DNA of 64,000 bases from an uncultured Candidatus Saccharibacteria bacterium (lineage in GTDB: Bacteria; Patescibacteriota; Minisyncoccia; Phycocordibacterales; DATDWN01), in contig CAZQVT010000001.1 of assembly GCA_964596875.1 (NCBI GenBank), forward strand, positions 42,514 through 106,513. Reading direction: 5' to 3'. A program made the translations under genes and the position numbers. Positions within the stretch are counted from its first letter, which is position 1. Every line of letters begins with the position of its first letter. The notes beneath the pieces are model-generated. The model was not told the origin of the DNA. It saw only the letters and a list, made by a program, of their open reading frames with translations, and ran no database searches. Below are positions 7,912 through 60,274 of the stretch, piece by piece.

Positions 7912-7978
7912 GAAATGACGCGTATCATTTCGCAAGACCTTGAGCACGAAGTAGCGAAAGGTGTACAGAGTCTGTAAG
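7912..7978 (+). repeat. repeat family R2/R3 copy a: hairpin GAAATGAcgcgtaTCATTTC + GCAAGACCTT ... AAGGTGTACAGAGTCTGTAAG
   Basis: hairpin+GCAAGACCTT shared with 33436.., 43550.., 29685..(rc); AAGGTGTAC...CTGTAAG shared with 33505.., 43618.., 60253.. Confidence 0.55.
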
Positions 7979-8077
7979 ACTCGAAGAAAATTTCTAGCGA
8001 GAAATTATTCTGTTTCCAGAAAAGTTATGGCGAGAAAGAAATTTTGTGTCGCAGATTTAGTTTGATACAATTAAGCA

Positions 8078-9730
8078 ATGAAATATTCACATTCAGAGTT
8101 ACTTGATAAAATAAAAGAAATTTTTCAGGGTGAAGTAAACTCTGACGTAAAAACACTAGATACATATAGTCGTGATGCTAGTTTGCTCGAGGTAAAACCG
8201 GAACTAGTTTTGTTTCCAAAAGATTCAGAAGATATTCAAAAGTTAGTTAAGTTTGTTTCCGAAAACAAGTCTGATAACCCGACACTTTCTATCACAGCAC
8301 GTTCTGCTGGAACTTGTATGTCAGGAGGCTCATTAAACGAGTCTATTATTCTAGATGTCACCAAACATATGGGTGGTATAAAGCAAGTTTCGTCTGAAGA
8401 GGCAACAGTTTTACCTGGAACTTTTTACAGAGACTTTGAAGTGGAGACTTTGAAACATGATGCGATACTGCCAAGTTATACAGCATCAAAAAACTTAAAC
8501 ACTGTGGGTGGCATGGTGGCAAACAACTCTGCAGGTGAAAAAACTTTGGCATACGGAAAAACAGAAAAATATGTAAAAGAACTAAGAGTTATTTTTGCAG
8601 ATGGTAACGAGTATGTGACAAAACCACTAAACAGAGAAGAGTTAGAAAAAAAGATGGCGCAGGGGGACTACGAGGGAAATATTTATAAAAACCTTTGGAA
8701 TCTTATACAGGAAAATGAACATGCAATAAAATACGCTAAACCAGATGTTTCTAAAAACTCTGCTGGATATTATTTGTGGAATGTTTGGGATGGAGAAACT
8801 TTTGATATCAACAAACTTATAACAGGTTCACAGGGAACACTTTGCATAATAACTGACATCAAGTTCAAACTAGTTCCTATAAAAAAGAAATCAAAATTAT
8901 TTGTTATTTTTTTGCGCAACCTAGATCATTTAAGTGAGTTGGTAAACGAAGTTCTAACAACAAACCCAGAATCTCTAGAGTCATATGACGACAGTACGAT
9001 GAAACTTGCTTTCAAGTTTTTCCCATCCATGCTTAAAACTATGAAAGTTCATAACTTTGTAAAACTAATGTTTGGATTTTTGCCAGAAGCAGGGATGATA
9101 CTAACTGGGGGAATACCAAAACTCATTTTGCTTGTAGAATTTTCTGACAATGACGAAAAAGAGATAGATAAAAAAATGTATGAACTTCAAAGAAAGATTG
9201 CTCATTTTGGTTTGAAGACTCGTATGTCACGTTCTGAAGAAGAATCTAGCAAGTACTGGACTATAAGGCGGGAGAGTTTCAACCTTTTGCGACAACACGT
9301 AAAAGGGGCGCGAACTGCGCCATTTATAGATGATGTGGTAGTAAAACCACAATATCTTCCAGAGTTTCTACCAAAGATGCGAAAAATTTTGGATGAACAC
9401 AAACTCGTTTACACCATTGCAGGGCATGCAGGAAATGGAAACTTTCATATTATCCCTCTTATGAATATGAAAGATCCTAAAAATGCAGAACTTATCCCAA
9501 TAGTTTCCGACAAAATATATAGTCTAGTAAAAGAATACCGAGGTTCTATAGATGCGGAACACAATGACGGTATTATACGTACTCCATATCTAGAGCAAAT
9601 GTTTGGTCATGAAATGGTCCAGATTTTCAAAAAAACTAAAGACATTTTTGACCCACAAAACATCTTTAACCCAGGCAAAAAGGTGGGCGGGACTAAACAA
9701 TACATGATAGACCACATTGTGAAAAACTAA
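8078..9730 (+). CDS. FAD-binding oxidoreductase (FAD-linked oxidase/GlcD-like, PCMH-type FAD domain)
   Basis: N-terminal FAD_binding_4-like region (VLFPKDSEDIQKLVKFVSENK...ARSAGTCMSGGS) and C-terminal FAD-oxidase_C-like HxxNGN..H motifs; 550 aa. Confidence 0.65.
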   Translation: MKYSHSELLDKIKEIFQGEVNSDVKTLDTYSRDASLLEVKPELVLFPKDSEDIQKLVKFVSENKSDNPTLSITARSAGTCMSGGSLNESIILDVTKHMGGIKQVSSEEATVLPGTFYRDFEVETLKHDAILPSYTASKNLNTVGGMVANNSAGEKTLAYGKTEKYVKELRVIFADGNEYVTKPLNREELEKKMAQGDYEGNIYKNLWNLIQENEHAIKYAKPDVSKNSAGYYLWNVWDGETFDINKLITGSQGTLCIITDIKFKLVPIKKKSKLFVIFLRNLDHLSELVNEVLTTNPESLESYDDSTMKLAFKFFPSMLKTMKVHNFVKLMFGFLPEAGMILTGGIPKLILLVEFSDNDEKEIDKKMYELQRKIAHFGLKTRMSRSEEESSKYWTIRRESFNLLRQHVKGARTAPFIDDVVVKPQYLPEFLPKMRKILDEHKLVYTIAGHAGNGNFHIIPLMNMKDPKNAELIPIVSDKIYSLVKEYRGSIDAEHNDGIIRTPYLEQMFGHEMVQIFKKTKDIFDPQNIFNPGKKVGGTKQYMIDHIVKN

Positions 9731-9771
9731 TAAAATCACCCCATCTGCGTTGTTGCTGTTCAATTTTGCTC

Positions 9772-9810
9772 ACTCACCTTACTATTTGTAAGGCTCGTTC
9801 TCAAAATCTC
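9772..9810 (+). repeat. R4 hairpin module CTCACCTTACtattTGTAAGGCTCGTTCTC downstream of FAD oxidoreductase
   Basis: CCTTAC/GTAAGG inverted repeat plus conserved flanks also at 927.., 25286.., 42759.., 46266.. Confidence 0.5.
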
Positions 9811-9894
9811 CAGCGCCTAGCACCTAGGGTAATTTAATTAGTTTTTAGTTTTGGAGGGGTTGATTTTATACAGTATTTAGTCTATACTAGCCGA

Positions 9895-10536
9895 ATGACA
9901 ATTTTAGAAGCTGAAATCAGAGATAAATCAGTAGACAGTGTTGCACTTAGAAACGAGGGCAAAATTCCTGCTGTTTTCTATGGTAAAAAGACAGAATCTA
10001 CTCCTATAACTCTATCTAGAAATGACTTTATTTCTGCGTGGAACAAAGAAGGTGAGTCAGGAGTTGTAACTATTAAAACATCTAAAGGAACTGTAGATAC
10101 TCTTATAAAAGATATAGATATTGACCCAGTATCTGACATGGTGAGACACGTAGATTTTTATGTATTCGAAAAAGGAAAGAAAGTTGAACTAGATGTTCCT
10201 CTAGAATTCGTGGGAGTTTCTCCAGCAGTAAAGGACCTTTCTGGAAACTTAGTTAAGGCTATGCACGAGATCAAGATTTCAGCAGATCCTACAAACATTC
10301 CTCACGAAATCACAGTAGATATTTCTTCACTTGTTGATTTTGATAGTAAAATCGTTGCAGGTGATCTAAAACTTCCTGCAGGAGTTACTCTTATTGAAAA
10401 TGCAGAAGAGGTAGTTGCAGCAGTTGCAAGACAAAAAGAAGAAACAGACGAACCTTCAGCCCCAGTTGATTTGTCTTCAATAGAGGTAGAGAAGAAGGGT
10501 AAGAAAGAGGAAGAAGGAGGAGAATCAGCAGAATAA
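9895..10536 (+). CDS. rplY: 50S ribosomal protein L25/general stress protein Ctc
   Basis: MTILEAEIRDK...LRNEGKIPAVFYGKK is classic bL25; C-terminal E/K-rich tail. Confidence 0.8.
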   Translation: MTILEAEIRDKSVDSVALRNEGKIPAVFYGKKTESTPITLSRNDFISAWNKEGESGVVTIKTSKGTVDTLIKDIDIDPVSDMVRHVDFYVFEKGKKVELDVPLEFVGVSPAVKDLSGNLVKAMHEIKISADPTNIPHEITVDISSLVDFDSKIVAGDLKLPAGVTLIENAEEVVAAVARQKEETDEPSAPVDLSSIEVEKKGKKEEEGGESAE

Positions 10537-10607
10537 TTACAAAAAGTCCCCGCAAGGGGATTTTTTGTAAGTAAGGTTATGAATTCCCGTCTAAAAATAG
10601 TATAATA

Positions 10608-18262: not shown

Positions 18263-19513
18263 TTACCTCCAGGTAGTTTTGACGCTAAAGATAGCATTCC
18301 AAGCTGCTTTGCCGATCCATAGAGGTGCAATAAACATATATAAAGACAGGTAATAAATCAAGTCTAGGCCAAGGTCAAGTTTGTTCTCTGACATTCTCTT
18401 TGACATTAGTATCATTAGAAATGACCCTATAGCAACAACTAGTCCAACAAGGGCTATTATCTCTGTATTTACGTAAAATAGGTCAAAATTAGGCATTCCT
18501 AGGTGTAGGTTTAGGCCCACAGTTTGGACTCTAACAAACCAGTTTGCTAGGCCATCTATAATAGAGTAAATAGATACGCTAGAAACAAAAAGAACTGAAA
18601 CTATAGAAATACATGCCATCGGAAGTATAAGCATTCCGACATTTCCATATTTTTTATTGAAAATCATGTCTCTAAAATCGTAGGCATTTTTTATAAAACC
18701 ATATGACCAGCGAACTCTCTGTTTCAAAAGTTTTTTAACAGTTTCTGGAGGAACTGTGTATACGATAGCCTCATGCGCATGAGCGATTTTGAAACCATTT
18801 TTTTGCATGCGAAGTGCTATTTGGATATCTTCGGTGTTGTGAGCGTGTTCGTATCCACCCAGTTTTTCAAATACATCTTTTCTAAATATAGAAAATGGTC
18901 CAGGAGTAATGTAGATAGCATCCATGTAGTGGTACATTTTTCTAGTGAAAATACCGAAGCCGTACTCTACTTTCTGAAGCAGTTGCAAAATGTTTCTTGG
19001 TTGCCAAAGTTTGATAGAAGGTGCAACCGCCATAACTTCTCTGTCTTCAAAGTAAAGAGCGATTTTTTTCATGCTGTCCTTGTGTACATAAGAGTCGGCA
19101 TCAAGGCATCCAACAAGGTCTGTAGTTAGTTTTGAAATACCATAGTTTAGTGCGGTGTATTTACCACCGTTTTCTTTTGTGTGAAGTTCTATTTGTTTAT
19201 TATTTCTAAACTTCTGCACCACATTCCATGTACTGTCTGTACTACCGTCGTCCACTACCATGATTTTCAGTTTGTCTTTCGGGTAGTCTAGGTTCAGTAG
19301 AGAGTGAATAGTTTTTGAAACTGTTTTTTCTTCATTCCAGCAAGGTACGATAATAGTAACAGAAGGGTATTTTTTCAGTTTTACATTTGCTTGGGCTTTT
19401 GACTCGGCTTTGATTTCTTTGCGGTTTTCAAAGTAAGTTATGAGCAAAAAGATCTCAAAATTTAGAGAAATGAACAGAAAGAAATATGTTACGTAGTTGT
19501 TTATATCACTCAT
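18263..19513 (-). CDS. processive family-2 glycosyltransferase (cellulose/chitin-synthase-like, membrane)
   Basis: VDDGSTD (DxD region), QRVRW (QxxRW) motif, flanking TM helices; 416 aa. Confidence 0.75.
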   Translation of the reverse strand: MSDINNYVTYFFLFISLNFEIFLLITYFENRKEIKAESKAQANVKLKKYPSVTIIVPCWNEEKTVSKTIHSLLNLDYPKDKLKIMVVDDGSTDSTWNVVQKFRNNKQIELHTKENGGKYTALNYGISKLTTDLVGCLDADSYVHKDSMKKIALYFEDREVMAVAPSIKLWQPRNILQLLQKVEYGFGIFTRKMYHYMDAIYITPGPFSIFRKDVFEKLGGYEHAHNTEDIQIALRMQKNGFKIAHAHEAIVYTVPPETVKKLLKQRVRWSYGFIKNAYDFRDMIFNKKYGNVGMLILPMACISIVSVLFVSSVSIYSIIDGLANWFVRVQTVGLNLHLGMPNFDLFYVNTEIIALVGLVVAIGSFLMILMSKRMSENKLDLGLDLIYYLSLYMFIAPLWIGKAAWNAIFSVKTTWR

Positions 19514-22508: not shown

Positions 22509-22526
22509 GGGCTTTTTCACTAAAAA

Positions 22527-22641
22527 TTTTTTCAGACCGCTCGTTCCGCCTGCGCTTCACTCACTTTGTCCTCAACCCAAATCCGTCAAGAACGGGGTGC
22601 CTTGACGGAACCAAGCTTTGGGTTTGCGGAGTCATCAAAAA
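22527..22641. repeat. 115-nt intergenic repeat, copy B (family R1)
   Basis: TTTTTCAGACCgctc...ATCCGTCAAGAACGGGGTGCCTTGACGGAACCAAGCTTTGGGTTTGCGGAGTC; aligns along full length with 6732..6846. Confidence 0.7.
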
Positions 22642-22742
22642 GTTTTAGTTCAACGCAACACAAATACAATAATTTTTTTACATACAAAAACCCCTGACCT
22701 GGCCCCACATATTGCGTGGGGCTCCTGGCCGGGGCGCGCGAG

Positions 22743-23012
22743 TTAGTTACTCGCATGGTATGAGGTGTAGAGTGGTGGGTTTCTGCAGATCTCGAACCTC
22801 ATCTCGAGATCCTGGTACTTCTTGTTCAGGTTGTTATACTTTCCTCCGATGTCTTCAAGGATGCCTCGTTGCTGGTCCAGCACCACACTAAGTGCTTCTG
22901 AGCTTTGCTTGAGCTCCTTGATCTCTTCGAGGTTGGGGTACGACCACGCAGTGACACTTACTCCCACTGCGATTCCGAGACTGAACACGAGGCCTACTGC
23001 GAGGTATCTCAT
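22743..23012 (-). CDS. small secreted/membrane-anchored coiled-coil protein, GC-enriched island gene (89 aa)
   Basis: GGAGaaagtgtccATG RBS; signal-like MRYLAVGLVFSLGIAVGV; own TTGACA promoter at ~23045-23075 (minus) and hairpin terminator 22700-22725; ORF track extends to 23060 but internal start has the RBS. Confidence 0.45.
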   Translation of the reverse strand: MRYLAVGLVFSLGIAVGVSVTAWSYPNLEEIKELKQSSEALSVVLDQQRGILEDIGGKYNNLNKKYQDLEMRFEICRNPPLYTSYHASN

Positions 23013-23144
23013 GGACACTTTCTCCATGCAATACTGTAATGTATTTTGTGTAATTGTCAATATGGTATTGTACTAAATTTGCTTGTTTGTACCCTTAAAA
23101 TTTGCTATAATTTGCAAGTAAAATTAACTAAAAATACTTTAAAT

Positions 23145-37286: not shown

Positions 37287-39542
37287 ATGTATCTAAAGTC
37301 TATTGAACTAAATGGTTTCAAATCTTTCGCTAAAAAAAGCGAACTATCTTTCAATACAAAAGTTTCTGCGATAGTTGGCCCAAATGGTTCGGGCAAGTCA
37401 AATGTTGCCGAAGCCTTTCGTTTTGTTTTGGGTGAACAGTCTATAAAAAGTTTGCGTGGTAAAAAAGGTGAGGACCTTATTTTTAATGGAGCAGGTGACC
37501 TGCCTAGAGCAAACAGGGCTTCGGTAAAAGTAGTTTTCGACAACTCCACAAAGTTTTTACCTGTGGACTTTGAAACTGTCACAGTAGAACGTGTGGTGCA
37601 CCGGGATTCTGTAAACGAGTACCTCATAAACGGCTCCCAGGTCAGACTAAAAGACGTTGTAGAACTTTTGGCATCTGCACATATTGGCTCTAGTGGTCAC
37701 CATATTATTTCCCAGGGTGAGGCAGACAGAATACTGAACGTTAGTCCAAAAGAAAGAAAAAATATGATAGAGGATGCGCTCGGCCTAAAAATGTATCAGT
37801 ACAAAAAAATAGAAAGTCAGAAGAAACTTTTGAAAACAAAAGAAAATATTGAAAAAGTAGAATCTCTTCGCAGAGAAATAATGCCTCATATAAAGTTTCT
37901 CAAAAAGCAGGTAGAAAAAGTAGAAAAGGCTATTCAAATGAAAGAGGAGTTGCAGAAAGAGGCTTTAGAGTATTGTAAGCGTGAAGACGACTACATAAAG
38001 AAAACAGAACAAAAACTGACTACAGAAAAGACACCTCTAACTCATAAACAAAAAGAGTTGGATGATGAACTTTCTCATGCAAAAAGTATTCTAGAGAATG
38101 CAAAAAACAAAGACGGCCTGTCTGACAGACTTATAACTTTGGAAAAAGACTTGCACAGAGCCAGAGATGAAAAAGACGAACTTTTCAGAAACTTTGGAAG
38201 ACTAGATGGAGAAATAAACTCTCTGGTAAAGATGGTCAGAAAACAAGAAGAAGTCGCTCGTTCCATGGAACACAAAACTGTGACCCTGGTTTCTGTGGAG
38301 GAGCTTTCTGTAAAAATAGAAGACAAAATAAAAAAAGCAAAAGAGACAAATGATGTTGGGGTTCTAAGTAGCGCTCTGGATGAAGTGTTTGGACTACTTA
38401 CTGACTTTATCGACTACAACAAAGACAAAGTTGAAAACACCCTTATTGCAGACGTGCAAAAAGATATAGAGCATCTACAAGTTTCTAAAAAAGAACTAGA
38501 AGTAAAACTAGAGAAGGTAAACAACGAAGAAAAAGAACTTTCTGCAGAGTACAGTAAACTTAAAAACGAAATAGAAAAAGAGAAAGATTCAAACCGAGAT
38601 GCGGAAAAGGCCGTGTTTAGAATCATGGCAGAGTCTGGCGAGATACGTTCAAAACTTCATGACATTGCTTTGCACGAGGAAAACCTGAAACTAGTGAAGG
38701 AGGATTTTAAAAGAGAACTTACGGAACTTGGGGTTCTTTTGGGCACACATGTTTTGCAGTTTGGAAACGTAGAGATAGAGAACCTAGACGAAGACAGACA
38801 TTTGCAGGAAGAAAGAAGAAAAAGAATAGAAAAAATAAAAATACGACTAGAGGACTCTGGAGGAGTGCTTGGTACAGAGATACTAAAAGAATACACAGAT
38901 GCCACAGAGCGTGATGCATTTTTGGAAAAAGAACTAGCAGATCTAGAAAACTCGGCTACATCTCTGGGAGTACTCATAAGTGACTTGGATGTAAAACTTG
39001 GTACAGAGTTTAAAAATGGTGTAGAAAAAATCAACAACCAGTTCAAGGAATACTTTGCGATGATGTTTGGTGGAGGTGAAGCAAAACTAGAAGTAGCGGT
39101 TCCAGTAAAAAAGAAAAAAGATACAGATATTGTTTTGGAAGATAGTGAAGGCGAAGAGAATTATGAAGCAGAGGAAACAGAAAGTAGTGAGGGTATAGAC
39201 ATAGAAGTTTCTTTGCCAAAGAAAAAAGTTCGAGGACTTATGATGCTTTCTGGTGGTGAAAGAGCACTGACTTCTATTGCACTTTTGTTTGCTATTTCTC
39301 AGGTAAACCCACCACCGTTTATTATTCTAGACGAAACAGACGCAGCGCTGGATGAAGCAAACTCTAAAAAGTATGCAGATATGATAGAGAATCTTTCGAA
39401 GTATTCTCAGCTTATTGTGATAACTCATAACAGAGAAACAATGTCGCGTGCAGGAATACTTTACGGAGTGACTATGGGTGCGGGCGGGGGGTCAAAACTA
39501 CTTAGTGTTGCCTTTGAGGATGCCGTTGCCGTAGCAAAGTAA
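37287..39542 (+). CDS. smc: chromosome partition protein SMC (short form, ~751 aa)
   Basis: MYLKSIELNGFKSFAKK...GPNGSGKSN Walker A, long coiled coils, C-terminal LSGGERALTSIALLFAI signature + Walker B ILDETDAALD. Confidence 0.8.
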   Translation: MYLKSIELNGFKSFAKKSELSFNTKVSAIVGPNGSGKSNVAEAFRFVLGEQSIKSLRGKKGEDLIFNGAGDLPRANRASVKVVFDNSTKFLPVDFETVTVERVVHRDSVNEYLINGSQVRLKDVVELLASAHIGSSGHHIISQGEADRILNVSPKERKNMIEDALGLKMYQYKKIESQKKLLKTKENIEKVESLRREIMPHIKFLKKQVEKVEKAIQMKEELQKEALEYCKREDDYIKKTEQKLTTEKTPLTHKQKELDDELSHAKSILENAKNKDGLSDRLITLEKDLHRARDEKDELFRNFGRLDGEINSLVKMVRKQEEVARSMEHKTVTLVSVEELSVKIEDKIKKAKETNDVGVLSSALDEVFGLLTDFIDYNKDKVENTLIADVQKDIEHLQVSKKELEVKLEKVNNEEKELSAEYSKLKNEIEKEKDSNRDAEKAVFRIMAESGEIRSKLHDIALHEENLKLVKEDFKRELTELGVLLGTHVLQFGNVEIENLDEDRHLQEERRKRIEKIKIRLEDSGGVLGTEILKEYTDATERDAFLEKELADLENSATSLGVLISDLDVKLGTEFKNGVEKINNQFKEYFAMMFGGGEAKLEVAVPVKKKKDTDIVLEDSEGEENYEAEETESSEGIDIEVSLPKKKVRGLMMLSGGERALTSIALLFAISQVNPPPFIILDETDAALDEANSKKYADMIENLSKYSQLIVITHNRETMSRAGILYGVTMGAGGGSKLLSVAFEDAVAVAK

Positions 39543-39561
39543 AAAGTTTTATAATTTTGAG

Positions 39562-39598
39562 TTGCAAAAAGGGCGGTCGCTGTTGCGCCGCCCTTCTG
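39562..39598 (-). terminator. rho-independent terminator (minus strand) for island gene 39619..39864
   Basis: rc GAAGGGCGGCGCAACAGCGACCGCCCTTTTTGCAAC. Confidence 0.6.
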
Positions 39599-39618
39599 GC
39601 TGTGTGAGCTCGCCACGT

Positions 39619-39864
39619 TCAGTGGGCGAGTGACAGTCGGAAGATCCGAACGGGGAAGAGCATCGGCTCGGTGTCACTTCTCATGACTGCCGGGCCGAAG
39701 GGTGTTCTTGAGATGACGACGCTATCGCCACACTGATCTCGCACGACTGCGCGTACGAACAGGCATCTGTCCGCCCCACAGACGATCTCGACCGCTCCGA
39801 AGGGGTGAATCTGATTGACTACATCCCCCGGTGACAGTGTTACCGCTCCTTCGGGCATGCTCAC
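39619..39864 (-). CDS. hypothetical protein, high-GC island gene (81 aa; GTG start)
   Basis: TTGGAGGcccaatGTG RBS; GC3-rich; TTGCAA-17-TGcATAAT promoter at 39870-39905 (minus). Confidence 0.4.
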   Translation of the reverse strand: MSMPEGAVTLSPGDVVNQIHPFGAVEIVCGADRCLFVRAVVRDQCGDSVVISRTPFGPAVMRSDTEPMLFPVRIFRLSLAH

Positions 39865-39916
39865 ATTGGGCCTCCAACGAAGTATTATGCAATAGTATCA
39901 AATATATTGCAAGTAA

Positions 39917-43529: not shown

Positions 43530-43549
43530 AAAGTTTTGTTTTCCGGTGA

Positions 43550-43639
43550 GAAGTGATGTTATCACTTCGCAAGACCTTGCCAAATTTTTCTAGAACGAAG
43601 TGATTAGAAAAATAGACAAGGTGTACTGTTCCTGTAAGG
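43550..43639 (+). repeat. repeat family R2/R3 copy c: GAAGTGATgttaTCACTTC-GCAAGACCTT ... AAGGTGTACTGTTCCTGTAAGG
   Basis: shared modules with copies a,b,d,e. Confidence 0.6.
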
Positions 43640-43732
43640 AAATCATAAAAAAATAGAGGAGTGGAAACTAGGTAAAGGCAAAAAATAACTCCTACAGAAA
43701 AACCCGCGAGTGCGACAGAGTTTCTCTGCCGC

Positions 43733-43912
43733 CTACGCGGGCTGGAGCTCGTTGACCTTTCTGGTCTTGAGCCGTGCTTTTGCTTGTTTTCTTTTGACCT
43801 CACTCATCATCCTTTCTTGCTGTATCTCTGCGATGATTGCGTCGAGTCTGCCGAGCATTCGTGCTCCCCAGAGTCTTTCGCGGATGATCTGCTCTTTTGC
43901 TTGTCGAGTCAT
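43733..43912 (-). CDS. small highly basic coiled-coil protein, high-GC island gene (59 aa; below ORF-track threshold)
   Basis: AAGGAGGccatATG RBS, TTGACA-17-TATATT promoter 43925-43960 (minus), hairpin terminator 43700-43735; MTRQAKEQIIRERLWGARMLGRLDAIIAEIQQERMMSEVKRKQAKARLKTRKVNELQPA. Confidence 0.45.
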   Translation of the reverse strand: MTRQAKEQIIRERLWGARMLGRLDAIIAEIQQERMMSEVKRKQAKARLKTRKVNELQPA

Positions 43913-44037
43913 ATGGCCTCCTTATCCACCTGCAATTAATATACAGTAAATACTGTATATTGTCAAATTTGAGAAAGGCCGCGCTCCTCTCGGTTCGCGG
44001 CCTTGTTCGGGTGGGGGACTTTCTCGTCCCCGCCGGT

Positions 44038-44421
44038 TTACTTCTTTCGCTTCTTCCTCGCTTTCTGCTTGCGCGCACTTCCGATAGTAGTGCTGCTACC
44101 CAGCCACCGTTTGGGACTGAGTTTGGCGAGTTCCATCACGCACATGAAGGCGTAGATGGTGACATCGCCCACATGCTTGAACGAGTCGAGGTCCCAACAC
44201 TTGACCGCCTTGGCCATCGCCCCGACTGTCTTGTACTGGGAGTAGTGTCTCTTCACCACCTTGTTCAGGCGGGTGACGGCGGAGGTGTGTCCGCACTCGA
44301 GCTTCTGGTTCACCTGCCGGCGAGTCAGTTTGAACTCTCCGATGGTTAGAACCACCGCGTTCTGTCTGTCGGCGTAGGCCTTGCTTACCGGATGTCTGAA
44401 ACCCTCACTCTTCCTCGGCAT
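44038..44421 (-). CDS. hypothetical basic protein with KKRKK C-terminus, high-GC island gene (127 aa)
   Basis: CGGAGGGcatcaacgaATG RBS; consensus promoter TTGACA-aatatgttgtatgtgc-TATAAT at 44430-44480 (minus); GC3-rich. Confidence 0.45.
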   Translation of the reverse strand: MPRKSEGFRHPVSKAYADRQNAVVLTIGEFKLTRRQVNQKLECGHTSAVTRLNKVVKRHYSQYKTVGAMAKAVKCWDLDSFKHVGDVTIYAFMCVMELAKLSPKRWLGSSTTIGSARKQKARKKRKK

Positions 44422-44524
44422 TCGTTGATGCCCTCCGATTAGTATTATAGCACATACAACATATTTGTCAAGTATAAAATATAACAAATTGTTTTGAATT
44501 TTTTATATCTGTTACAATGTTTCA

Positions 44525-47342: not shown

Positions 47343-47425
47343 TAAAATATATAAAGTGTGTTATTGTAACTCTCGCTACTTTTACGACATAAAGTCGATA
47401 CTTGCTAGCATGGAGTTCTTTCTCA

Positions 47426-48295
47426 ATGATGAAGCGTCTGCTCCTCCCCGTCTTCACCGCGATCCTCATGATGCCGTCGCTCGGCTTCGCTCAGGGCACC
47501 GTCGTCTTCTCGAACCTGCCGTCGCCCACGCCGGGCAACATCCCGTCCTTGGGCTACCAGTGCTGCTCGGTCTCCGAGTTCGGCGACCGCGTGCACCTCG
47601 AGGCCGACACGCCCCGGCGTGCCAGCAGCGCGACGGTTCTGATGTCGTCGTGGTCGCTCCACTCGAACTACCCGACGATGTCCGCGGCCGGCTACAAGCA
47701 CCCGATCACGCTCGCGGTCTACGCGAACGACGCGGCGGCCCTGGCGCATTCGCCCTTGGCAACCGTGACCCAGATGATGGACATCCCGTGGCGGCCCGAG
47801 GCCGACCCGACCTGTCCCGGCGGGACGGCATGGCGCGCAACGAACGGCCAGTGCTACAACGGCATGGCCTTCACGCTCACGTTCGACCTGCGCAGTCTGA
47901 ACCTCACGCTCCCGGACGAGTTCGTCTGGGGTGTGGCGTACAACACGCAGACCTGGGGCTACAACCCGCTCGGCGTCGCCGGCCCGTACGAGTCGCTCAA
48001 CGTCGGCACGACCGCTTCGGCGCCGTCAGTCGGCGTCGATGTGGATCCGGACGTGGCGTACGTCAACTACGCCGTGGCGGGGTTCTACTCCGACCTCGGC
48101 GCGGGTGGCACGAACACCTTCCGCGCCGATACGGCATGGACGGGATTCGCTCCCTCGGCGGAGTTCACCACGGTTGCCGTTCCGGCGACCACCGGTGAGT
48201 GCAAGAACGGAGCCTGGCAGAACCTGGTCCGGCGTGACTTCACGCCGTTCAAGAACCAGGGAGCCTGCGTCTCCTACGTCAACACCGGCAAGTAG
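47426..48295 (+). CDS. secreted hypothetical protein, very high-GC island gene (~65% GC, 289 aa)
   Basis: signal peptide MMKRLLLPVFTAILMMPSLGFAQG; extreme GC3 bias (ccg/ggc/acg/gtc); followed by CGGCGGTCCtcagGGACCGCCGCTTTTTTAT terminator. Confidence 0.5.
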   Translation: MMKRLLLPVFTAILMMPSLGFAQGTVVFSNLPSPTPGNIPSLGYQCCSVSEFGDRVHLEADTPRRASSATVLMSSWSLHSNYPTMSAAGYKHPITLAVYANDAAALAHSPLATVTQMMDIPWRPEADPTCPGGTAWRATNGQCYNGMAFTLTFDLRSLNLTLPDEFVWGVAYNTQTWGYNPLGVAGPYESLNVGTTASAPSVGVDVDPDVAYVNYAVAGFYSDLGAGGTNTFRADTAWTGFAPSAEFTTVAVPATTGECKNGAWQNLVRRDFTPFKNQGACVSYVNTGK

Positions 48296-48321
48296 CCGGC
48301 AACAACACCAGTCATCGGGAA

Positions 48322-48357
48322 GATGTCCGGCGGTCCTCAGGGACCGCCGCTTTTTTA
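48322..48357 (+). terminator. rho-independent terminator
   Basis: GTCCGGCGGTCCTCAGGGACCGCCGCTTTTTTATAAA. Confidence 0.7.
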
Positions 48358-48401: not shown

Positions 48402-48430
48402 ATAGTGTCAAAGAGTCTCTTTGACACTAT
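48402..48430. repeat. perfect 29-nt palindrome ATAGTGTCAAAGAGtcTCTTTGACACTAT (REP-like) at 3' end of transposase gene
   Basis: self-complementary; second copy of core at 49041..49063. Confidence 0.8.
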
Positions 48431-49031
48431 AGTTCAAGGTTTCATGCTTAAAATCATTAATATTTTTAAATTTATTAAGAACAAAATCAGTTGTTATGAA
48501 TGAAAGGTTTCTGTTTTTTAAATAATCATTGTAACTACTCCAAATATATTTATAAGGGTTATCAGTAATTTTATCTTTTACTGGATTCATATGAATATAT
48601 GCAGTTGTCCATAAGAGTTGCGAGTCACTTTCAATCATTGTTGCTTTAAAACAGTCCTGAAATAGATGCCCAATTTTTTTGTATTTTTGATTTATGTACT
48701 TTGAATAACTCGTACAGACTTTCGAAACCAATTTTGAAATGGGCACGTCACTTAACTGTTCTATTAATAAATGAAAATGATTTGGCATTAGACAAAATGC
48801 GTGAATCTGAAATTGATTCTTGGCACCATAAATCCTAATTCTTGAAAATGGAACCGTAGTTAGATTATTTTTATTTAATTCTTTTGAATCTATTCCGAGA
48901 GCGAGCCCAAGTCTATATAGAAATGCTCTATAATCTTGTGGGTCTAAAAATATTCTTTCTTTATTATTTCCTCTATTGTAAATATGAGCTACTATACCCT
49001 GATCAAAATTTTTATAGTCCCTTTTGTTCAT
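48408..49031 (-). mobile_element. IS200/IS605-family Y1 (HuH) transposase, REP-associated tyrosine transposase (RAYT)-like
   Basis: HuH motif LMPNHFHLLIE and catalytic-Tyr motif TAYIHMNPV (RAYT YIHxNPV); 207 aa; flanked by palindromes at both ends. Confidence 0.7.
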
Positions 49032-49040: not shown

Positions 49041-49063
49041 ATGTCAAAGAGTCTCTTTGACAT
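49041..49063. repeat. 23-nt palindrome ATGTCAAAGAGtcTCTTTGACAT (REP-like) 10 nt upstream of transposase start
   Basis: same core TGTCAAAGAGTCTCTTTGACA as 48405..48427. Confidence 0.8.
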
Positions 49064-49162
49064 CAAGTTAGATAAAAATTGGGAAATGAAATAATTAAAT
49101 GTAAAGTGTACCTTTTGGGAAATAAGAGTAGTATACCGGCTAATACTAATTAACATAAATAC

Positions 49163-56820: not shown

Positions 56821-56831
56821 AATCTAAAACA

Positions 56832-57290: not shown

Positions 57291-57348
57291 TATAACAAAA
57301 CCAGGGTTTGAAAAATTATAAAAATTATAAAGATAACAAATAAAAAAC

Positions 57349-57540
57349 ATGACACAATTAAATTTGGAAAGATCATTGCGAGCACAACTAGAGACACTAA
57401 ATGATATAATAGACAGGAAAATAGTTAGAGGAGTTTCATACGCACGAGAGGCACGTGAACACAAACAAATTTTAACAAGACTTTCAAATCTAAAAAGAAA
57501 CAGATCTTTGTGGTCATTTAGATCTCTATCACTAGCATAA
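57349..57540 (+). CDS. small ORF (63 aa) between LexA box and lexA; putative SOS-regulated leader/peptide
   Basis: first ORF downstream of the operator-containing promoter; weak RBS; K/R-rich. Confidence 0.3.
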   Translation: MTQLNLERSLRAQLETLNDIIDRKIVRGVSYAREAREHKQILTRLSNLKRNRSLWSFRSLSLA

Positions 57541-57542
57541 AT

Positions 57543-58124: not shown

Positions 58125-58264
58125 ATCTCTTTTTCCTCATAACTTTTTTGTAAACAGAATAAATTTCTGCTGAAATTTTTCTTCGCGCTCATCTCTACAC
58201 GGGTTCCGCGATGTTCCAAAAAAATTATGACTCAATGAGATTTAATTTGTGTTAAAATTGTTTA

Positions 58265-58882
58265 ATGAAAAAAAAGTTTTTATACATCGGAGGTCTAGTT
58301 CTTTTACTTCTAGCATATTTTTTCTTTTTTAGTGAAAATAAACAAATAAAGAACTATCCATCTTCTGGTACAGATATCGTTGCCTTTGGTGATAGTCTTA
58401 TACAGGGAGTAGGTGCTACTAGTGAAAACACTAACCTTGTTTCGGTTTTATCTAGACGTATAGGTAAACCAATAGTAAACCTTGGAGTTTCTGGAAACAC
58501 TACAGAGGACGGTTTAAAAAGGTCGGGGGAACTAGATAAATACAATCCAAAAGTAGTTATTGTTCTACTCGGTGGTAACGACTATTTGAGAAAAGTTCCA
58601 ATAGACGACACATTTAAAAATCTTGAAAAAATTATAAAAAATATTCAAAGTCGCGGTGCGGTGGTTCTGCTTCTCGGTGTTCGTGGAGGAATAGTGACAG
58701 ATAAGTTTGATGAAAGGTTTGAGGACTTAGCGGAGAAAACTGGTTCGGCTTTTGTTTCAAATGTTTTAGACGGTTTAATAACCAAAGAAGAGTTCATGTC
58801 TGACCCAATACATCCAAACGATACTGGTTATGCAAAAATTGCTATAAGAGTTTACCCTGTGCTGTATAAGTTAGTTAAATAA
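58265..58882 (+). CDS. SGNH/GDSL-family hydrolase (arylesterase/lipase-like)
   Basis: signal/TM then IVAFGDSLIQG (GDSL block I), GGNDY block III, C-terminal DxxH; 205 aa. Confidence 0.7.
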   Translation: MKKKFLYIGGLVLLLLAYFFFFSENKQIKNYPSSGTDIVAFGDSLIQGVGATSENTNLVSVLSRRIGKPIVNLGVSGNTTEDGLKRSGELDKYNPKVVIVLLGGNDYLRKVPIDDTFKNLEKIIKNIQSRGAVVLLLGVRGGIVTDKFDERFEDLAEKTGSAFVSNVLDGLITKEEFMSDPIHPNDTGYAKIAIRVYPVLYKLVK

Positions 58883-59172
58883 TGAAACAGACTTACAAAT
58901 TTAAAGCTAAAGTTTGGCCGTGGGGAGATGTGGGTTCCTGGTGGTTTGTAAATGTTCCAGAAAAAATCTGTAAGGAAATAAGAAGTAAGTATCCAAAAGG
59001 AATGGTCAGAATAAATGTGAGTTTGGGTAAGTCAAAGTATGACAGCGCCTTGTTTCCAAACAAAAACTCTAAGGGAGAGTTTGGTTACCTTTTGTCCATA
59101 AGGAAAAAAGTTAGGCAAAAAGAAGAAATTCTTGAAAATGATACAATTACAGTGTCTTTTGTAATAGTATGA
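58882..59172 (+). CDS. DUF1905-like small protein
   Basis: FKAKVWPWGDVGSWWFVNVP pattern; 96 aa; overlaps neighbours by 1-4 nt (operon). Confidence 0.35.
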   Translation: MKQTYKFKAKVWPWGDVGSWWFVNVPEKICKEIRSKYPKGMVRINVSLGKSKYDSALFPNKNSKGEFGYLLSIRKKVRQKEEILENDTITVSFVIV

Positions 59173-59423
59173 AAATTCAGGTAAAAGTAAAACCAAACAG
59201 TAAGAAAGCGACAGTGGAAAGAGTTAGCCAACCAACTTTGGACTTGGGTTTGAAAAAAGAAATAGATGTATACAAAGTTTCTGTAAAAGAGCCTCCGGTA
59301 GATGGAAAGGCAAACAAGGCTGTGCTAAAAGCCTTGGCAGAATACTTTGAGGTATCGCAGTCGCAAGTAGGTCTGGTTTCCGGTTCTACAAGTAAAAATA
59401 AAATTTTTGAAATACTAAAATGA
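59169..59423 (+). CDS. DUF167/YggU-family protein
   Basis: VKVKPNSKK...VKEPPVDGKANKAVLKALAEYF...VSGSTSKNK matches YggU family pattern. Confidence 0.5.
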   Translation: MKIQVKVKPNSKKATVERVSQPTLDLGLKKEIDVYKVSVKEPPVDGKANKAVLKALAEYFEVSQSQVGLVSGSTSKNKIFEILK

Positions 59424-59923
59424 AAAAAGTAACTGTTAAAAACAAAATGCAGAAGGGCTACACATACGAACTGCAAGAGCCAGTGGGTAAAAACTTTCAC
59501 AAAGATTTTCAACCAGAACTTACTCCAAAACAAATGTTGGAACTTGGAGTTTTTGGTGGTAAATACATGAATGATGTTTCAGAAACAGACGAGTATCCAA
59601 AAGACTGGTGGAAAAATGCAAAACTTTCTTTGAAAAGAGACCCGAAACTAAATTTGTTTGGAGTAAATGCTAGTCAGCCACTTTCTGTATGGAGAAAGAA
59701 AGGTTGGATAAATGAACAAGACCCACGGGGTTGGTTTGAATGGTACTGTAGATATTATATGGGAAGAAGAACCTTGGACGATGCACGACAAATAAAACGA
59801 TGGAAGGCAATAACTCGTCATATAGCGCAGATTGGGAAAAATTGTAGAGTGGGAGACTTTGCATGCCATACAAAACAAAGACAAGCGGTGCTACACTGGG
59901 CATACGACAGTAGAAAGATGTAA
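59420..59923 (+). CDS. hypothetical protein (167 aa, Trp-rich)
   Basis: ORF in operon-like array; no recognizable motif. Confidence 0.35.
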   Translation: MKKVTVKNKMQKGYTYELQEPVGKNFHKDFQPELTPKQMLELGVFGGKYMNDVSETDEYPKDWWKNAKLSLKRDPKLNLFGVNASQPLSVWRKKGWINEQDPRGWFEWYCRYYMGRRTLDDARQIKRWKAITRHIAQIGKNCRVGDFACHTKQRQAVLHWAYDSRKM

Positions 59924-59924
59924 T

Positions 59925-60194
59925 ATGAAAAAAGAAATTAAAACATTTACTGAAAAAGTTAAGGACGTGGTAAGAAAAATACCCCGTGGAAAAACTATGA
60001 CTTATGCAGAAGTGGCCAAAAAAGCAGGTAGTCCTGGAGCATCCCGTGCTGTGGGAAGTATTATGAAAGCGAACTTCGACCCAAAGATTCCGTGTCACAG
60101 AGTCATCCGTTCGGATGGAAAAGTTGGGGAGTACAACAGAGGTGGAAGCTCAAAAAAACTCGCTCTACTCAAAAAGGAAGGTTGGAAACAGTAG
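59925..60194 (+). CDS. ogt: methylated-DNA-protein-cysteine methyltransferase, short DNA-binding/active-site domain only (Ogt/MGMT C-terminal domain)
   Basis: IPCHRVI (PCHR active site) and preceding helix-turn-helix; 89 aa from internal ATG. Confidence 0.6.
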   Translation: MKKEIKTFTEKVKDVVRKIPRGKTMTYAEVAKKAGSPGASRAVGSIMKANFDPKIPCHRVIRSDGKVGEYNRGGSSKKLALLKKEGWKQ

Positions 60195-60206
60195 GAACTA
60201 TTTCCA

Positions 60207-60274
60207 AAAGCTTTTCAGATATTTTATGAGTCTGGCGAAGTAAAATATCGAAAAGGTGTACTGCTCCTGTAAGG
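60207..60274 (+). repeat. repeat family R3 copy d: TTTTCAGATATTTTATGAG...CGAAGTAAAATATCG-AAAAGGTGTACTGCTCCTGTAAGG
   Basis: ~90% identical over ~70 nt to 33467..33526. Confidence 0.6.

What the first reader, a model, noticed from the sequence alone, without database searches (positions are those of the whole stretch)
7912..60274. Dispersed bipartite repeat family: short hairpin + GCAAGACCTT (R2) and AAGGTGTACTGTTCCTGTAAGG module (R3), five loci, often at island borders
Seen directly, R2 copies: GAAATGAcgcgtaTCATTTC-GCAAGACCTTG (7912-7942). GAAGTCGCggggCGACTTC-GCAAGACCTTTTT (33436-33467). GAAGTGATgttaTCACTTC-GCAAGACCTTG (43550-43579). Reverse-complement copy GCGAAGTaacggatttcACTTCGC-AAGACCTTG (29685-29716). 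The hairpin sequence varies but the stem end (...TTC) and the downstream GCAAGACCTT are fixed, suggesting structure-level selection. R3 copies (AAGGTGTAC..CTGTAAGG) lie 25-60 nt downstream at 7958, 33505, 43618 and alone at 60253. Copies b (33467-33526) and d (60207-60274) additionally share a perfect 10-bp hairpin GATATTTTAT-n12-ATAAAATATC and about 70 nt of near identity. Copies a, c and e lie at the edges of high-GC islands 1, 7 and 2. Such copy numbers in 64 kb are unexpected for a streamlined genome. Candidates are a small non-autonomous mobile element, recombination sites for the island cassettes, or a family of cis-regulatory RNAs.
Basis: seen in the sequence. Interest (0 to 1): 0.6.

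Follow-up and report, generated by a model that had tools for sequence, protein, structure and literature searches.

The report
Mobile three-hairpin element of Parcubacteria
The repeats are five copies of an undescribed, roughly 100-base folded element that is scattered through the small genomes of Parcubacteria (candidate-phyla-radiation bacteria), inserts next to and into tRNA and protein genes, and matches no RNA family in Rfam release 15.

Summary
The window holds five copies, three intact and two degenerate. Each reads (R)G-UGAG, hairpin P1, GCAAGA, long hairpin P2 (CCUU...AAGG), UGUAC-NG, hairpin P3 (loop UGUAA).

An exact-pattern scan found about 110 more copies. Nearly all are in Paceibacteria/Parcubacteria genome bins with 35-60% G+C. 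All three helices covary strongly, and the linkers are invariant or nearly so. Rfam has no match.

The copies are not conserved regulatory sites:
- Relatives with 86-92% identical DnaE lack them at syntenic positions.
- Copy number differs greatly between genomes.
- Copies sit beside tRNA genes 2.9 times more often than chance, and 27 of 29 are co-oriented.
- They occur inside tRNA fragments at or near loop and junction positions, inside each other, and inside the first 30 nt of rnhB (window copy b).
- They follow a purine-G, often with a 13-54-nt duplication that restores the target gene.

The best reading is a non-autonomous mobile element whose folded single strand is what gets recognised. 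I favour an RNA intermediate but have not shown it. Adjacency to the high-GC islands is not significant. At the one locus where the history can be reconstructed, the element and the neighbouring gene cassettes arrived independently.

The parts
7908..7982 (+). Copy a, intact core: GUGAG 7908-7912; P1 7912-7931; GCAAGA 7932-7937; P2 7938-7961; UGUAC 7962-7966; P3 7968-7982 (GAGUC-UGUAA-GACUC)
   Evidence: Sequence; model R1 hit 7895-7994 at 66.3 bits; fold
7983..8012 (+). 3' extension of copy a: P4 hairpin (GAAGAAAAUUUCUAGCGAGAAAUUAUUCUG), as found in the 'composite' subfamily
   Evidence: Sequence; same module after P3 in L029, L054, L063, L086 and others
33405..33433 (+). Left target duplication of copy b: decayed copy of the first ~29 nt of rnhB (ATGAAATATATTGCAGGAATAGACGAAGT)
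   Evidence: matches the rnhB start at 33566-33598; the orthologous locus L145 has a 21-nt perfect repeat within the ~29-nt duplicated rnhB start; promoter-like sites lie just upstream
33432..33528 (+). Copy b, intact core: GUGAG 33432-33436; P1 33436-33454; GCAAGA 33455-33460; P2 33461-33508; UGUAC 33509-33513; P3 33516-33528
   Evidence: R1 hit 33419-33541 at 86.5 bits; also present in an independent Logan assembly, L001
33529..33565 (+). 3' tail of copy b (GGUCGAGGUCCACUUUCC...A-rich), lying between P3 and the intact rnhB start
   Evidence: a related tail occupies the same place in L145 (shared GAGGUCC hairpin, A-rich run); both element and tail are absent from the empty sites in L121, L122 and L123
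33566..33598 (+). Right target duplication: the 5' end of the functional rnhB gene
43546..43641 (+). Copy c, intact core, 17 nt after the trmD stop: P1 43550-43568; GCAAGA 43569-43574; P2 43575-43621; P3 43629-43641
   Evidence: R1 hit at 84.0 bits; relatives L121 and L122 have trmD followed directly by the next gene and no element
60181..60276 (+). Copy d, degenerate: GUUGG for GUGAG and CAAAAGCUU for GCAAGACCUU; P2-P3 nearly identical to b; 5' end overlaps the ogt-like ORF end (stop at 60194)
   Evidence: R1 hit at 60.6 bits with alignment; alignment A3; Pfam DNA_binding_1 for ORF 59832-60194
29643..29718 (-). Copy e, degenerate and G+C-rich: GUGCG, P1, GCAAGA, P2, AAGGUGUGC; P3 lost; abuts high-GC island 2, just after the dnaE stop
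   Evidence: R1 hit 29731-29616 at 26 bits; sequence; absent from the dnaE-aaRS spacer of L121-L123

Best explanation
The five loci belong to a large family of non-autonomous mobile elements specific to Paceibacteria/Parcubacteria.

Anatomy. The unit is about 95 nt. It starts with UGAG and has three hairpins (P1, P2, P3). The stems are free to change as long as they still pair. The linkers (GCAAGA, UGUAC) and the P3 loop (UGUAA) are fixed or nearly so. Longer 'composite' forms of about 200 nt carry a second, related element around it.

Shown:
- The fold is under selection on one specific strand.
- Copies are gained and lost between close relatives.
- New copies land immediately 3' of a purine-rich ...RRG. 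They land in tRNA genes at or near loop and junction positions, in the first tens of nucleotides of protein genes or 5' leaders, and in other copies of the element.
- They are almost always co-oriented with adjacent tRNA genes.
- In 16 of 98 copies the target's end is duplicated (13-54 nt), so an intact gene remains downstream.

Inferred:
- The invariant core is the platform recognised by whatever mobilises the element. That could be a trans-acting enzyme or the element's own catalytic fold.
- The element has no promoter of its own and is transcribed as part of host transcripts.
- Most likely it spreads by copy-and-paste through an RNA intermediate (reverse transcription with template switching or target priming).
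- The long duplications are the subset of events that selection lets survive inside essential genes.
- Individual old copies, such as b in the rnhB leader, may since have acquired a host role.
For: - Structure. Across 114 sequences the covariation score is 0.393, against 0.131 in shuffles (0 of 500 reach it) and at most 0.117 for slid registers. 18 of 24 tested pairs show double changes.
- Strand. The + strand folds better in 106 of 114 copies. G-U pairs outnumber A-C mismatches 14 to 4 in P1.
- Breadth. At least 119 pattern hits in genome contigs, of which about 110 are true copies in many Parcubacteria lineages. No Rfam match.
- Gain and loss. No copy in L121, L122 or L123 (DnaE 86-92% identical), although the regions are syntenic with window copies b, c and e. 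Only one copy, the ortholog of b, in 293 kb from 26 relatives.
- Filled versus empty site. L145 and the window read [rnhB 1-29]|element|tail|[intact rnhB]. L121-L123 have an uninterrupted rnhB start.
- Flanking repeats. 16 of 98 copies exceed the 99th percentile of controls, where about 1 is expected. The upstream repeat abuts the element's 5' end in 14 of the 16, and lies 6 and 25 nt away in L053 and L055.
- tRNA chimeras with precise junctions: L002, L003, L004, L034, L066, L084, L086, L091 and L105.
- Nested and tandem insertions.
- tRNA proximity. 29 of 116 copies lie within 350 nt of a tRNA gene, against 10.0 +/- 2.8 by random placement. 27 of the 29 are on the same strand.
- No conserved promoter at a fixed distance.
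- Degenerate copies d and e.
Against: - No mobilising gene was identified. The window has no reverse transcriptase or integrase, and published work finds no group II introns in Patescibacteria (PMC13011429).
- No transcript data exist, so an RNA intermediate is pure inference.
- One duplication-bearing insertion (L021) is antisense to its tRNA target.
- tRNA-derived flanks carry no non-templated CCA (seen directly).
- The orthologous copies b and L145 differ by two compensatory pair changes in P1, and stems are almost free of mismatches. This speaks for continued selection on copies after insertion (a host function), or for gene conversion between copies.
- Stems differ between copies within one genome. 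That is unusual for a recently spreading element recognised by one enzyme.
- Orientation relative to flanking protein genes is close to random when genes are called naively.
Confidence: 0.55

Rival explanations
1. The element is a host-beneficial cis-acting RNA module. It could be a 5'-leader or inter-cistronic element that sets RNA processing, stability or folding, for example in pre-tRNA and mRNA leaders. In this reading it is duplicated around the genome because it is useful, not because it is mobile.
For: Near-perfect stems and invariant or nearly invariant linkers across 35-60% G+C genomes. Orthologous copies b and L145 keep the fold through two compensatory changes. Strong co-orientation with adjacent tRNA genes, 27 of 29. 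Copy b lies between promoter-like sites and rnhB.
Against: Neighbouring genes are unrelated: an FAD oxidase, rnhB, various tRNAs, and the 3' ends of trmD, ogt and dnaE. 19 copies are antisense to both neighbours. The element is absent from the same sites in close relatives. Copies sit inside dead tRNA fragments and inside each other. Degenerate copies exist. Copy number varies widely between related genomes.
Confidence: 0.2
2. The element is a REP/BIME- or IS200/IS605-type single-stranded-DNA element. Hairpins on the lagging-strand template would be recognised by a HUH tyrosine (Y1) transposase such as the RAYT-like protein encoded at 48408-49031.
For: - One strand is the folded one.
- That strand is preferentially the G-rich strand, which is the lagging-strand template: 64 versus 36 overall, and 41 versus 12 where skew is strong.
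- Simple insertions show no target duplication and a defined short target (...RRG^).
- GUGAG next to a hairpin foot recalls the GTAG of REPs (my own knowledge).
- A Y1_Tnp gene is present in the window, and homologs occur in two other loci that carry the element.
Against: The RAYT-like gene is flanked by a different palindrome (TGTCAAAGAGTCTCTTTGACA), not by this element. RAYT homologs in other element-bearing loci are only 27-34% identical, while the element's linkers are identical. They are also not enriched near the element. P1 and P3 stems differ freely between copies in one genome. The long, variable flanking duplications and the 27-of-29 co-orientation with tRNA genes are not features of this mechanism. 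The element has three different hairpins rather than matched end hairpins.
Confidence: 0.13
3. The element is a recombination (att or attC-like) site that captures or borders the high-GC gene cassettes.
For: In the window, a, b, c and e each lie at the 3' end of lineage-specific small-gene insertions. tRNA fragments next to the element resemble att-site remnants of integrated elements.
Against: Cassette and element turn over independently at the rnhB-dnaE spacer: L123 has the cassette only, L145 has both, and the window has the element plus a different cassette. Orientation relative to cassette genes is inconsistent: a and b are on the same strand, c and e on the opposite strand. Five other islands have no element. 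Adjacency is not significant. There is no integrase and there are no attC-type R/L boxes. The 'islands' enclosed by tRNA repeats are only 100-200 nt, that is, the element itself.
Confidence: 0.04
4. The element is a multi-copy trans-acting small RNA gene family, tRNA-like or ribonucleoprotein-forming, with a housekeeping role.
For: High copy number, conserved fold, and clustering and co-orientation with tRNA genes. P1 loops (UGGGA, UUGGA) and the P3 loop (UGUAA) resemble T-loop and D-loop pentanucleotides (my own reading).
Against: There is no promoter at a fixed distance, no terminator and no closing helix. P1 loops are not conserved. The element is absent or rare in close relatives. Copies overlap coding ends and lie within gene 5' ends.
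Confidence: 0.05

Closest known systems
REP / BIME / REPIN elements with RAYT (Y1 HUH) transposases
   Same: Short, non-coding, high-copy and intergenic. Hairpin-forming with a conserved motif at the hairpin foot. One active strand. A RAYT-like gene is present in the genome.
   Different: Three different hairpins with invariant or nearly invariant single-stranded linkers over ~95 nt. Identical linkers across a whole bacterial class, rather than a sequence specific to one species. Not found flanking the RAYT gene. Long, variable target duplications. Insertion into tRNA genes at or near loop positions.
Group I introns in Patescibacteria tRNA genes (PMC13011429), and group II/III introns and twintrons in general
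   Same: Structured RNA-like element found inside tRNA genes of the same phylum. Covarying helices with an invariant core. Nested copies recall twintrons. The 5' GUGAG and the 3' ...GUGAC of the composite form recall group II ends (GUGYG...AY).
   Different: About 95-200 nt. No Rfam intron match. No P1-P9 or domain V/VI architecture. The host tRNA copies are fragments that could not be restored by splicing. Gene function is rescued by duplication, not by splicing.
Eukaryotic SINEs and ribozyme-processed non-LTR elements (R2, L1Tc Pr77)
   Same: Non-autonomous, structured and promoter-less, co-transcribed with the host gene. Variable-length target duplications. One- to two-base overlap or extra bases at the 5' junction. 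Variable, often A-rich 3' tails. Association with tRNA loci.
   Different: Bacterial host. No partner reverse transcriptase identified. No Pol III promoter. This is an analogy only; none of it has been tested biochemically.
Multi-copy structured repeats of other bacteria (Correia, BOX/RUP, ERIC) and dispersed self-cleaving ribozyme motifs (hammerhead, twister, hatchet, pistol)
   Same: Dozens of copies per genome, often in transcripts, modular, with conserved secondary structure.
   Different: No terminal inverted repeats and no fixed short duplication (unlike MITEs). No match to any ribozyme family in Rfam. Self-cleavage has not been tested.
Integron attC sites
   Same: Recombination sites defined by folded single-strand structure rather than by sequence, and sometimes next to small promoter-less cassettes.
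   Different: No R''/R' (RYYYAAC/GTTRRRY) boxes. Three hairpins rather than a single bulged hairpin. No integrase. No arrays. Cassettes move independently of the element.

Membership tests
REP/BIME-RAYT system | The RAYT (Y1 transposase) gene is flanked by its cognate REP sequences | tested here: not met
   The Y1_Tnp gene at 48408-49031 is flanked by TGTCAAAGAGTCTCTTTGACA palindromes at 48403-48429 and 49042-49066. The nearest copy of this element is about 5 kb away.
REP/BIME-RAYT system | A single 20-40-nt imperfect palindrome with a conserved tetranucleotide at its foot, with a sequence specific to a species or genus | tested here: not met
   The element has three hairpins over ~95 nt. Its linkers are identical in lineages labelled Kaiser-, Zambryski-, Taylor-, Lloyd-, Nomura-, Campbell- and Yonathbacteria.
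IS200/IS605-derived miniature elements | No target duplication, insertion 3' of a fixed short target, and a strand bias towards the lagging-strand template | tested here: inconclusive
   The target ...RRG^ and simple insertions without duplication are seen. The bias to the G-rich strand is 64:36. But 16 of 98 copies carry 13-54-nt duplications, and the two end hairpins are unrelated.
MITE | Terminal inverted repeats and a fixed-length short target-site duplication | tested here: not met
   The ends are UGAG... and ...P3 with no inverted repeat. Duplication lengths vary from 0 to 54 nt.
Riboswitch / cis-regulatory leader | Conserved position upstream of homologous or functionally related genes, in sense orientation | tested here: not met
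   Neighbours are unrelated and orientation classes are 32/20/19/19. The element is absent from orthologous sites in relatives.
Group I intron | P1-P9 core detectable by RF00028, with exons that reconstitute a functional gene | tested here: not met
   No Intron_gpI hit at E<=1 in seven loci with tRNA chimeras. The flanking tRNA pieces lack a T-arm and acceptor 3' strand.
Group II intron | 5' GUGYG, domain V with catalytic AGC and a 2-nt bulge, domain VI branch A, at least ~400 nt | tested here: not met
   The element is 95-200 nt with no Rfam hit. Only the end motifs (GUGAG ... GUGAC) resemble group II.
Known self-cleaving ribozyme classes | Match to the hammerhead, twister, twister-sister, pistol, hatchet or HDV-like consensus | tested here: not met
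   cmscan at E<=10 over the window finds nothing at any copy. Catalysis itself cannot be tested with these tools.
Integron attC | R''/L''...L'/R' boxes, a single bulged hairpin, and cassette arrays next to intI | tested here: not met
   The sequences lack RYYYAAC/GTTRRRY. No integrase was found. Cassettes are independent of the element.
Retroelement (SINE-like, non-autonomous) | An RNA intermediate and a partner reverse transcriptase | not testable with these tools
   Only indirect signatures are available: variable duplications, 5'-junction overlap or extra bases, variable tails and co-orientation with tRNA genes. No reverse transcriptase is present in the window.

The most novel reading that the evidence does not exclude
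The element is a new class of small RNA-level mobile element in bacteria. One form would be a SINE/R2-like retroelement that rides on host transcripts, especially pre-tRNAs, and is copied back into DNA by a still-unidentified reverse transcriptase. The other form would be a miniature ribozyme-like 'intron' whose invariant junction (UGAG / GCAAGA / UGUAC / UGUAA) is a catalytic core for cleavage or insertion at ...RRG^ sites.
Probability: 0.2. Interest if true: 0.9.

Novelty: new variant of a known kind. Interest (0 to 1): 0.7.

Why it matters
Candidate-phyla-radiation bacteria have some of the smallest and most compact cellular genomes. Even so, this family occupies dozens of sites per genome in some lineages and almost none in close relatives. 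It is the kind of conserved, covarying structure usually reserved for ribozymes and riboswitches, yet it behaves like a transposable element that targets tRNA genes and gene starts.

If the element moves through RNA, it would be a bacterial counterpart of SINEs or a new small mobile ribozyme. If it moves as single-stranded DNA, it would extend the REP/HUH paradigm to a far more elaborate substrate.

The practical consequences hold under either mechanism:
- It is an unannotated feature that creates pseudo-tRNA fragments, decoy gene starts and tandem repeats.
- It will confuse gene calling and binning in Parcubacteria genome bins.
- It gives a sequence tag (GCAAGACCUU...AAGGUGUAC) that marks this lineage in metagenomes.

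Tried and rejected
- Rfam at gathering and at permissive thresholds, on the window and on seven tRNA-chimera loci. Nothing at any copy.
- A closing helix between the 5' and 3' flanks. No better than mismatched controls.
- A promoter at a fixed distance upstream. No information content beyond -5.
- Terminator function. No terminator-like sites were found.
- Protein coding. P1 length varies and is not a multiple of 3, so no frame is conserved. The ORF that reads through copy b is a by-product of insertion into rnhB.
- Phage origin. 21 pattern hits in IMG/VR score at most 23.6 bits with the model, so they are not genuine copies.
- Group I intron. The published Patescibacteria tRNA introns sit at position 35/36 and are a different thing.
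- T-box, K-turn and tRNA-mimic readings. Loop motifs are not conserved between copies, and the K-turn geometry does not fit.
- Physical linkage to the RAYT-like gene. Not enriched.
- Non-templated CCA on tRNA-derived flanks, as proof of a mature-tRNA intermediate. Absent.
- Reading the left edge of the duplications as the transcription start (-10-like hexamers 5-8 nt upstream in about half the cases). I do not rely on it. Selection for the shortest duplication that restores the gene explains the same pattern.
- Island association. Not significant.

Full report
OBSERVATION. GCAAGACCTT occurs four times exactly. AAGGTGTACnnnnnCTGTAAG occurs four times, against 0.06 expected. Single-sequence folds give the same layout each time. 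A variable hairpin P1 is preceded by GUGAG and followed by GCAAGA. A long hairpin P2 has CCUU...AAGG at its base. UGUAC-NG follows, then a short hairpin P3 with loop UGUAA whose stem differs between copies (GAGUC/GACUC, UUCC/GGAA, CUCC/GGAG).

A covariance model built later (R1) finds exactly five copies in the window. They are b at 33419-33541 (86.5 bits), c at 43533-43654 (84.0), a at 7895-7994 (66.3), d at 60168-60289 (60.6) and e at 29731-29616 on the minus strand (26.0). Copy d is full length but has a mutated linker, and it overlaps the end of the ogt-like ORF. Copy e has lost P3 and is G+C-rich. Copies b and d share about 70 nt of P2-P3. Copies b and e are also present in an independent Logan assembly of the same organism.

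THE FAMILY. About 110 of these have the whole architecture. The rest are chance hits inside genes of unrelated bacteria. The true hits come almost entirely from genome bins labelled Paceibacterota, Parcubacteria or Patescibacteria. Named groups include Kaiser-, Zambryski-, Taylor-, Lloyd-, Nomura-, Campbell- and Yonathbacteria, plus bins labelled Saccharibacteria. Local G+C ranges from about 0.35 to 0.63.

In an alignment of 114 copies the linkers fixed by the search pattern are invariant by construction. Positions not fixed by the pattern are also nearly invariant: GUGAG, the G before P3, and CUGUAAG. The three helices covary. 85% of cells are paired, against 67% in shuffles. There are 446 doubly changed cells, against 143. 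The covariation score is 0.393, against 0.131 in shuffles (0 of 500 reach it) and at most 0.117 when partners are slid by one to three columns. In the model-based alignment the stems of P1 and P3 are almost free of mismatches.

Rfam release 15 has no match at gathering or permissive thresholds. I found no description of the element in the literature searches. The published Patescibacteria tRNA introns are group I introns at position 35/36 (PMC13011429), which is a different thing.

NOT A FIXED REGULATORY SITE. The window is ordinary chromosome. It carries gapA, rpiB, rpe, tkt, fba, L25, RF, S2, EF-Ts, pheST, gyrB, an aaRS, dnaE, rnhB, RNase III, an SMC-like protein, an RNase R-like (RNB) gene, rpsP, trmD and others. 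Genes next to the copies are unrelated to one another. With naive gene calls, the four orientation classes relative to neighbours are 32, 20, 19 and 19. There is no sequence conservation further than 5 nt upstream, so no promoter at a fixed distance. There is no helix closing the 5' and 3' flanks and no terminator.

Three relatives whose DnaE is 86-92% identical have the same gene order from trmD to the aaRS. They include Parcubacteria bacterium C7867-003. None has a copy at the positions of b, c or e. In L121 and L122 the rnhB-dnaE spacer is 63 nt, against about 590 nt in the window. In 293 kb of syntenic DNA from 26 further relatives only one copy exists. By contrast, the 8-kb loci found through the pattern carry a second copy in about a quarter of cases. 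Copy number therefore differs by more than tenfold between related genomes.

INSERTION SIGNATURES. The single copy in the relatives (L145) is the ortholog of window copy b, and it shows how the element arrived. The promoter region is followed by the first ~29 nt of rnhB (ATGAAATACATAGTCGGAATAGATGAAGT). Then come the element, a ~36-nt tail, and a complete rnhB that starts again from its ATG. L121, L122 and L123 have the uninterrupted gene start. The window keeps a decayed version of the same left duplicate at 33405-33433.

A systematic comparison of the 42 nt ending at the GU of GUGAG with the 260 nt downstream finds such direct repeats in 16 of 98 copies above the 99th percentile of mismatched controls. 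About 1 is expected. The upstream repeat ends at the element's 5' end in 14 of these 16. In L053 and L055 it lies 6 and 25 nt upstream. Examples:
- A 42-nt repeat covering the start of a protein gene (L008).
- 17 nt of a 5' leader (L085).
- A 54-nt repeat of leader plus tRNA-Met positions 1-8, in a tandem array (L105).
- tRNA-Ser up to the D-loop (L002).
- tRNA-Glu up to the anticodon loop (L084).
- The last 13 nt of tRNA-Pro on the antisense strand (L021).

In a second pattern the element replaces nucleotides 25-26 of a partial tRNA copy, which lies just upstream of the intact tRNA. This is seen in L003, L047, L066 and L091, and in L034 and L086 with the ~200-nt composite form. In L004 and in the second copy in L084 it sits in the anticodon arm or the T-loop of a 3' tRNA fragment downstream of the intact gene.

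The element also inserts into relatives of itself:
- A 'shell' element has the form GUGAG-P1-GCAAGRCC-hairpin-GGGG^UCGCG-P4-YGUGAC. It exists alone (L030 twice, L083) and with the core inserted at the caret. At least 13 loci carry the flanks typical of the composite (CGAGNCGG before GUGAG, CGCG after P3).
- Two copies (L104, L119) are inserted after CCUGUAAG in P3 of another copy.

Across the junctions that can be read, the base before the element is G, preceded by purines (GAG, GGG, AAG, TAG). Across the alignment, G precedes UGAG in 85% of copies. tRNA genes lie within 350 nt of 29 of 116 copies, against 10.0 +/- 2.8 for random placement in the same loci (maximum 18 in 1000 trials). 27 of the 29 are on the same strand.

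WHICH STRAND, WHICH MOLECULE. The + strand folds more stably than its complement in 106 of 114 copies. In P1, G-U pairs outnumber A-C mismatches 14 to 4. So one specific single strand is the selected form. This fits RNA, but it also fits single-stranded DNA.

The folded strand lies on the G-rich strand of its locus in 64 of 100 cases, and in 41 of 53 where the skew is strong. That is compatible with co-orientation with transcription. It is equally compatible with exposure on the lagging-strand template.

Features favouring an RNA route:
- There is no promoter of the element's own.
- Copies are almost always in the sense orientation next to tRNA genes.
- Insertion points lie in or next to the single-stranded parts of the tRNA fold (positions 8/9, D-loop, 24-26, anticodon loop, T-loop).
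- One- to two-base overlaps or a few extra bases occur at the 5' junction.
- The 3' tails are variable and often A-rich.
- Duplication lengths vary.

Features against, or unexplained:
- No reverse transcriptase is in the window.
- Published work finds no group II introns in the phylum.
- One insertion is antisense.
- No CCA is present on tRNA-derived flanks.

The left edge of the duplications often lies 5-8 nt after a -10-like hexamer. That would fit a transcript 5' end. However, selection for the shortest duplication that still restores the gene explains the same pattern, so I do not lean on it.

The window encodes a RAYT-like Y1 transposase (48408-49031, Pfam Y1_Tnp, 48 bits). It is flanked by its own palindrome, not by this element. 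Its homologs in two other element-bearing loci are only 27-34% identical, and they are not enriched near the element. That makes it a poor candidate for recognising linkers that are identical across the class.

THE ISLANDS. The high-GC 'islands' are small genes of foreign composition, each with its own A+T-rich promoter region and terminator. The same spacers hold different small genes in each relative, so these spacers are insertion hot spots.

Copies a, b, c and e each lie at the 3' end of such an insertion. But a and b are on the same strand as the inserted genes, while c and e are on the opposite strand. Five other islands have no copy. With a simple G+C definition, 22.6% of all free non-coding bases lie within 200 nt of an island edge, and only 2 of 5 copies do.

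At the rnhB-dnaE spacer the history can be read. L123 has a small-ORF cassette with its terminator and no element. L145 has the same cassette plus the element. The window has the element plus a different cassette. Element and cassettes are therefore independent insertions into the same permissive places. Copy e, which is G+C-rich like island 2 and degenerate, probably arrived as a passenger on DNA from a G+C-rich Parcubacteria donor. That last point is inference.

AFTER INSERTION. The orthologous copies b and L145 differ in P1 by two double, pair-preserving changes (U-A to C-G, C-G to U-A). They also have different P2 subtypes. Within the window, b and d share P2-P3. Either individual copies stay under selection for the fold, which would mean a host or element function in place, or copies overwrite each other by gene conversion. 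I cannot separate these.

VERDICT. The finding is real and is much larger than the window suggests. It is a class-wide, unannotated, strongly structured element of about 95 nt, with ~200-nt composite forms, and it behaves as a non-autonomous mobile element with a preference for tRNA genes and gene starts.

I rate 'mobile element' at about 0.55. Within that, I favour an RNA intermediate over a HUH/single-stranded-DNA route. The main rival, at about 0.2, is a host cis-acting RNA module. The cassette-recombination idea is essentially excluded. The element fails the defining tests for REP/RAYT, MITE, attC, riboswitch, group I/II introns and the known ribozyme classes. It is best filed as a new variant of the structured dispersed-repeat kind. 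There is a roughly one-in-five chance that it is something categorically new, either a bacterial SINE-like element or a small mobile ribozyme.

Noticed in passing
window 6726-6850 and 22520-22640: A second, unrelated ~115-nt repeat family (TTTTCAGACC...CCGTCAAGAACGGGGTGCCTTGACGGA...GCGGAGTC). Copy 1 has inverted ends (TTTTCAGAC / GTCTGAAAA). Both copies lie just upstream of high-GC islands and have no Rfam match.
   Followed up: no
window 48408-49031 (-), with palindromes at 48403-48429 and 49042-49066: A RAYT-like / IS200-like Y1 transposase (Pfam Y1_Tnp, 48 bits; HUH motif NHFHLL, YIHMNP). It is flanked on both sides by the palindrome TGTCAAAGAG-TC-TCTTTGACA. A half-site-like match lies at 18396. 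Divergent homologs occur in L077 and L002.
   Followed up: partly
window ~6940-7860, 22650-23040, 28960-29650, 33035-33345, 34170-34910, 36630-37160, 39540-39915, 43690-44440, 47400-48330: Small genes of 50-68% G+C, with no Pfam match, each with its own A+T-rich promoter region and terminator. They are inserted between conserved housekeeping genes. The same spacers hold different small genes in relatives L121-L123 and L145, so these are cassette hot spots, probably fed by transfer from G+C-rich donors.
   Followed up: partly
window 6938-6980 and 7443-7495: Hairpins (for example TTGTTCCAAGAAA...TTTCTTGGAACAA, perfect over 13 bp) sit immediately upstream of the ribosome-binding sites of the two island-1 ORFs. 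They may be a regulatory or cassette-boundary feature.
   Followed up: no
window 33405-33524: The decoy rnhB start left by the insertion opens a 39-codon ORF (MKYIAGIDEV...). It reads through copy b and stops at the UAA in the P3 loop. L145 has the analogous 21-codon ORF. This could matter for translation of the downstream rnhB.
   Followed up: no
window 29761-33249 (-): The mechanical dnaE ORF is 1162 aa, but all homologs are about 1072 aa. The real start is therefore about 90 codons downstream (near 32980), which leaves a ~590-nt divergent spacer to rnhB.
   Followed up: yes
L034 1474-1530; L084 5718-5800; L097 7095-7165: Partial copies consisting of P2-P3 only (model positions 42-100). The L084 copy, and apparently the L034 copy, lies between the two halves of a tRNA T-arm. 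This suggests 5'-truncated insertions.
   Followed up: partly
L007 (bin labelled Azotimanducaceae), L079 (bin labelled Chromatiaceae): Genuine high-scoring copies (82 and 81 bits) on short contigs of bins labelled as Gammaproteobacteria. These are probably mis-binned Parcubacteria contigs rather than true occurrences outside the group.
   Followed up: no
L002 4580-4667 and 6927-7014: Two almost identical tRNA-Ser(GGA) genes bracket a 2.3-kb segment that contains a RAYT-like gene, with a copy of the element just upstream of the first tRNA.
   Followed up: no
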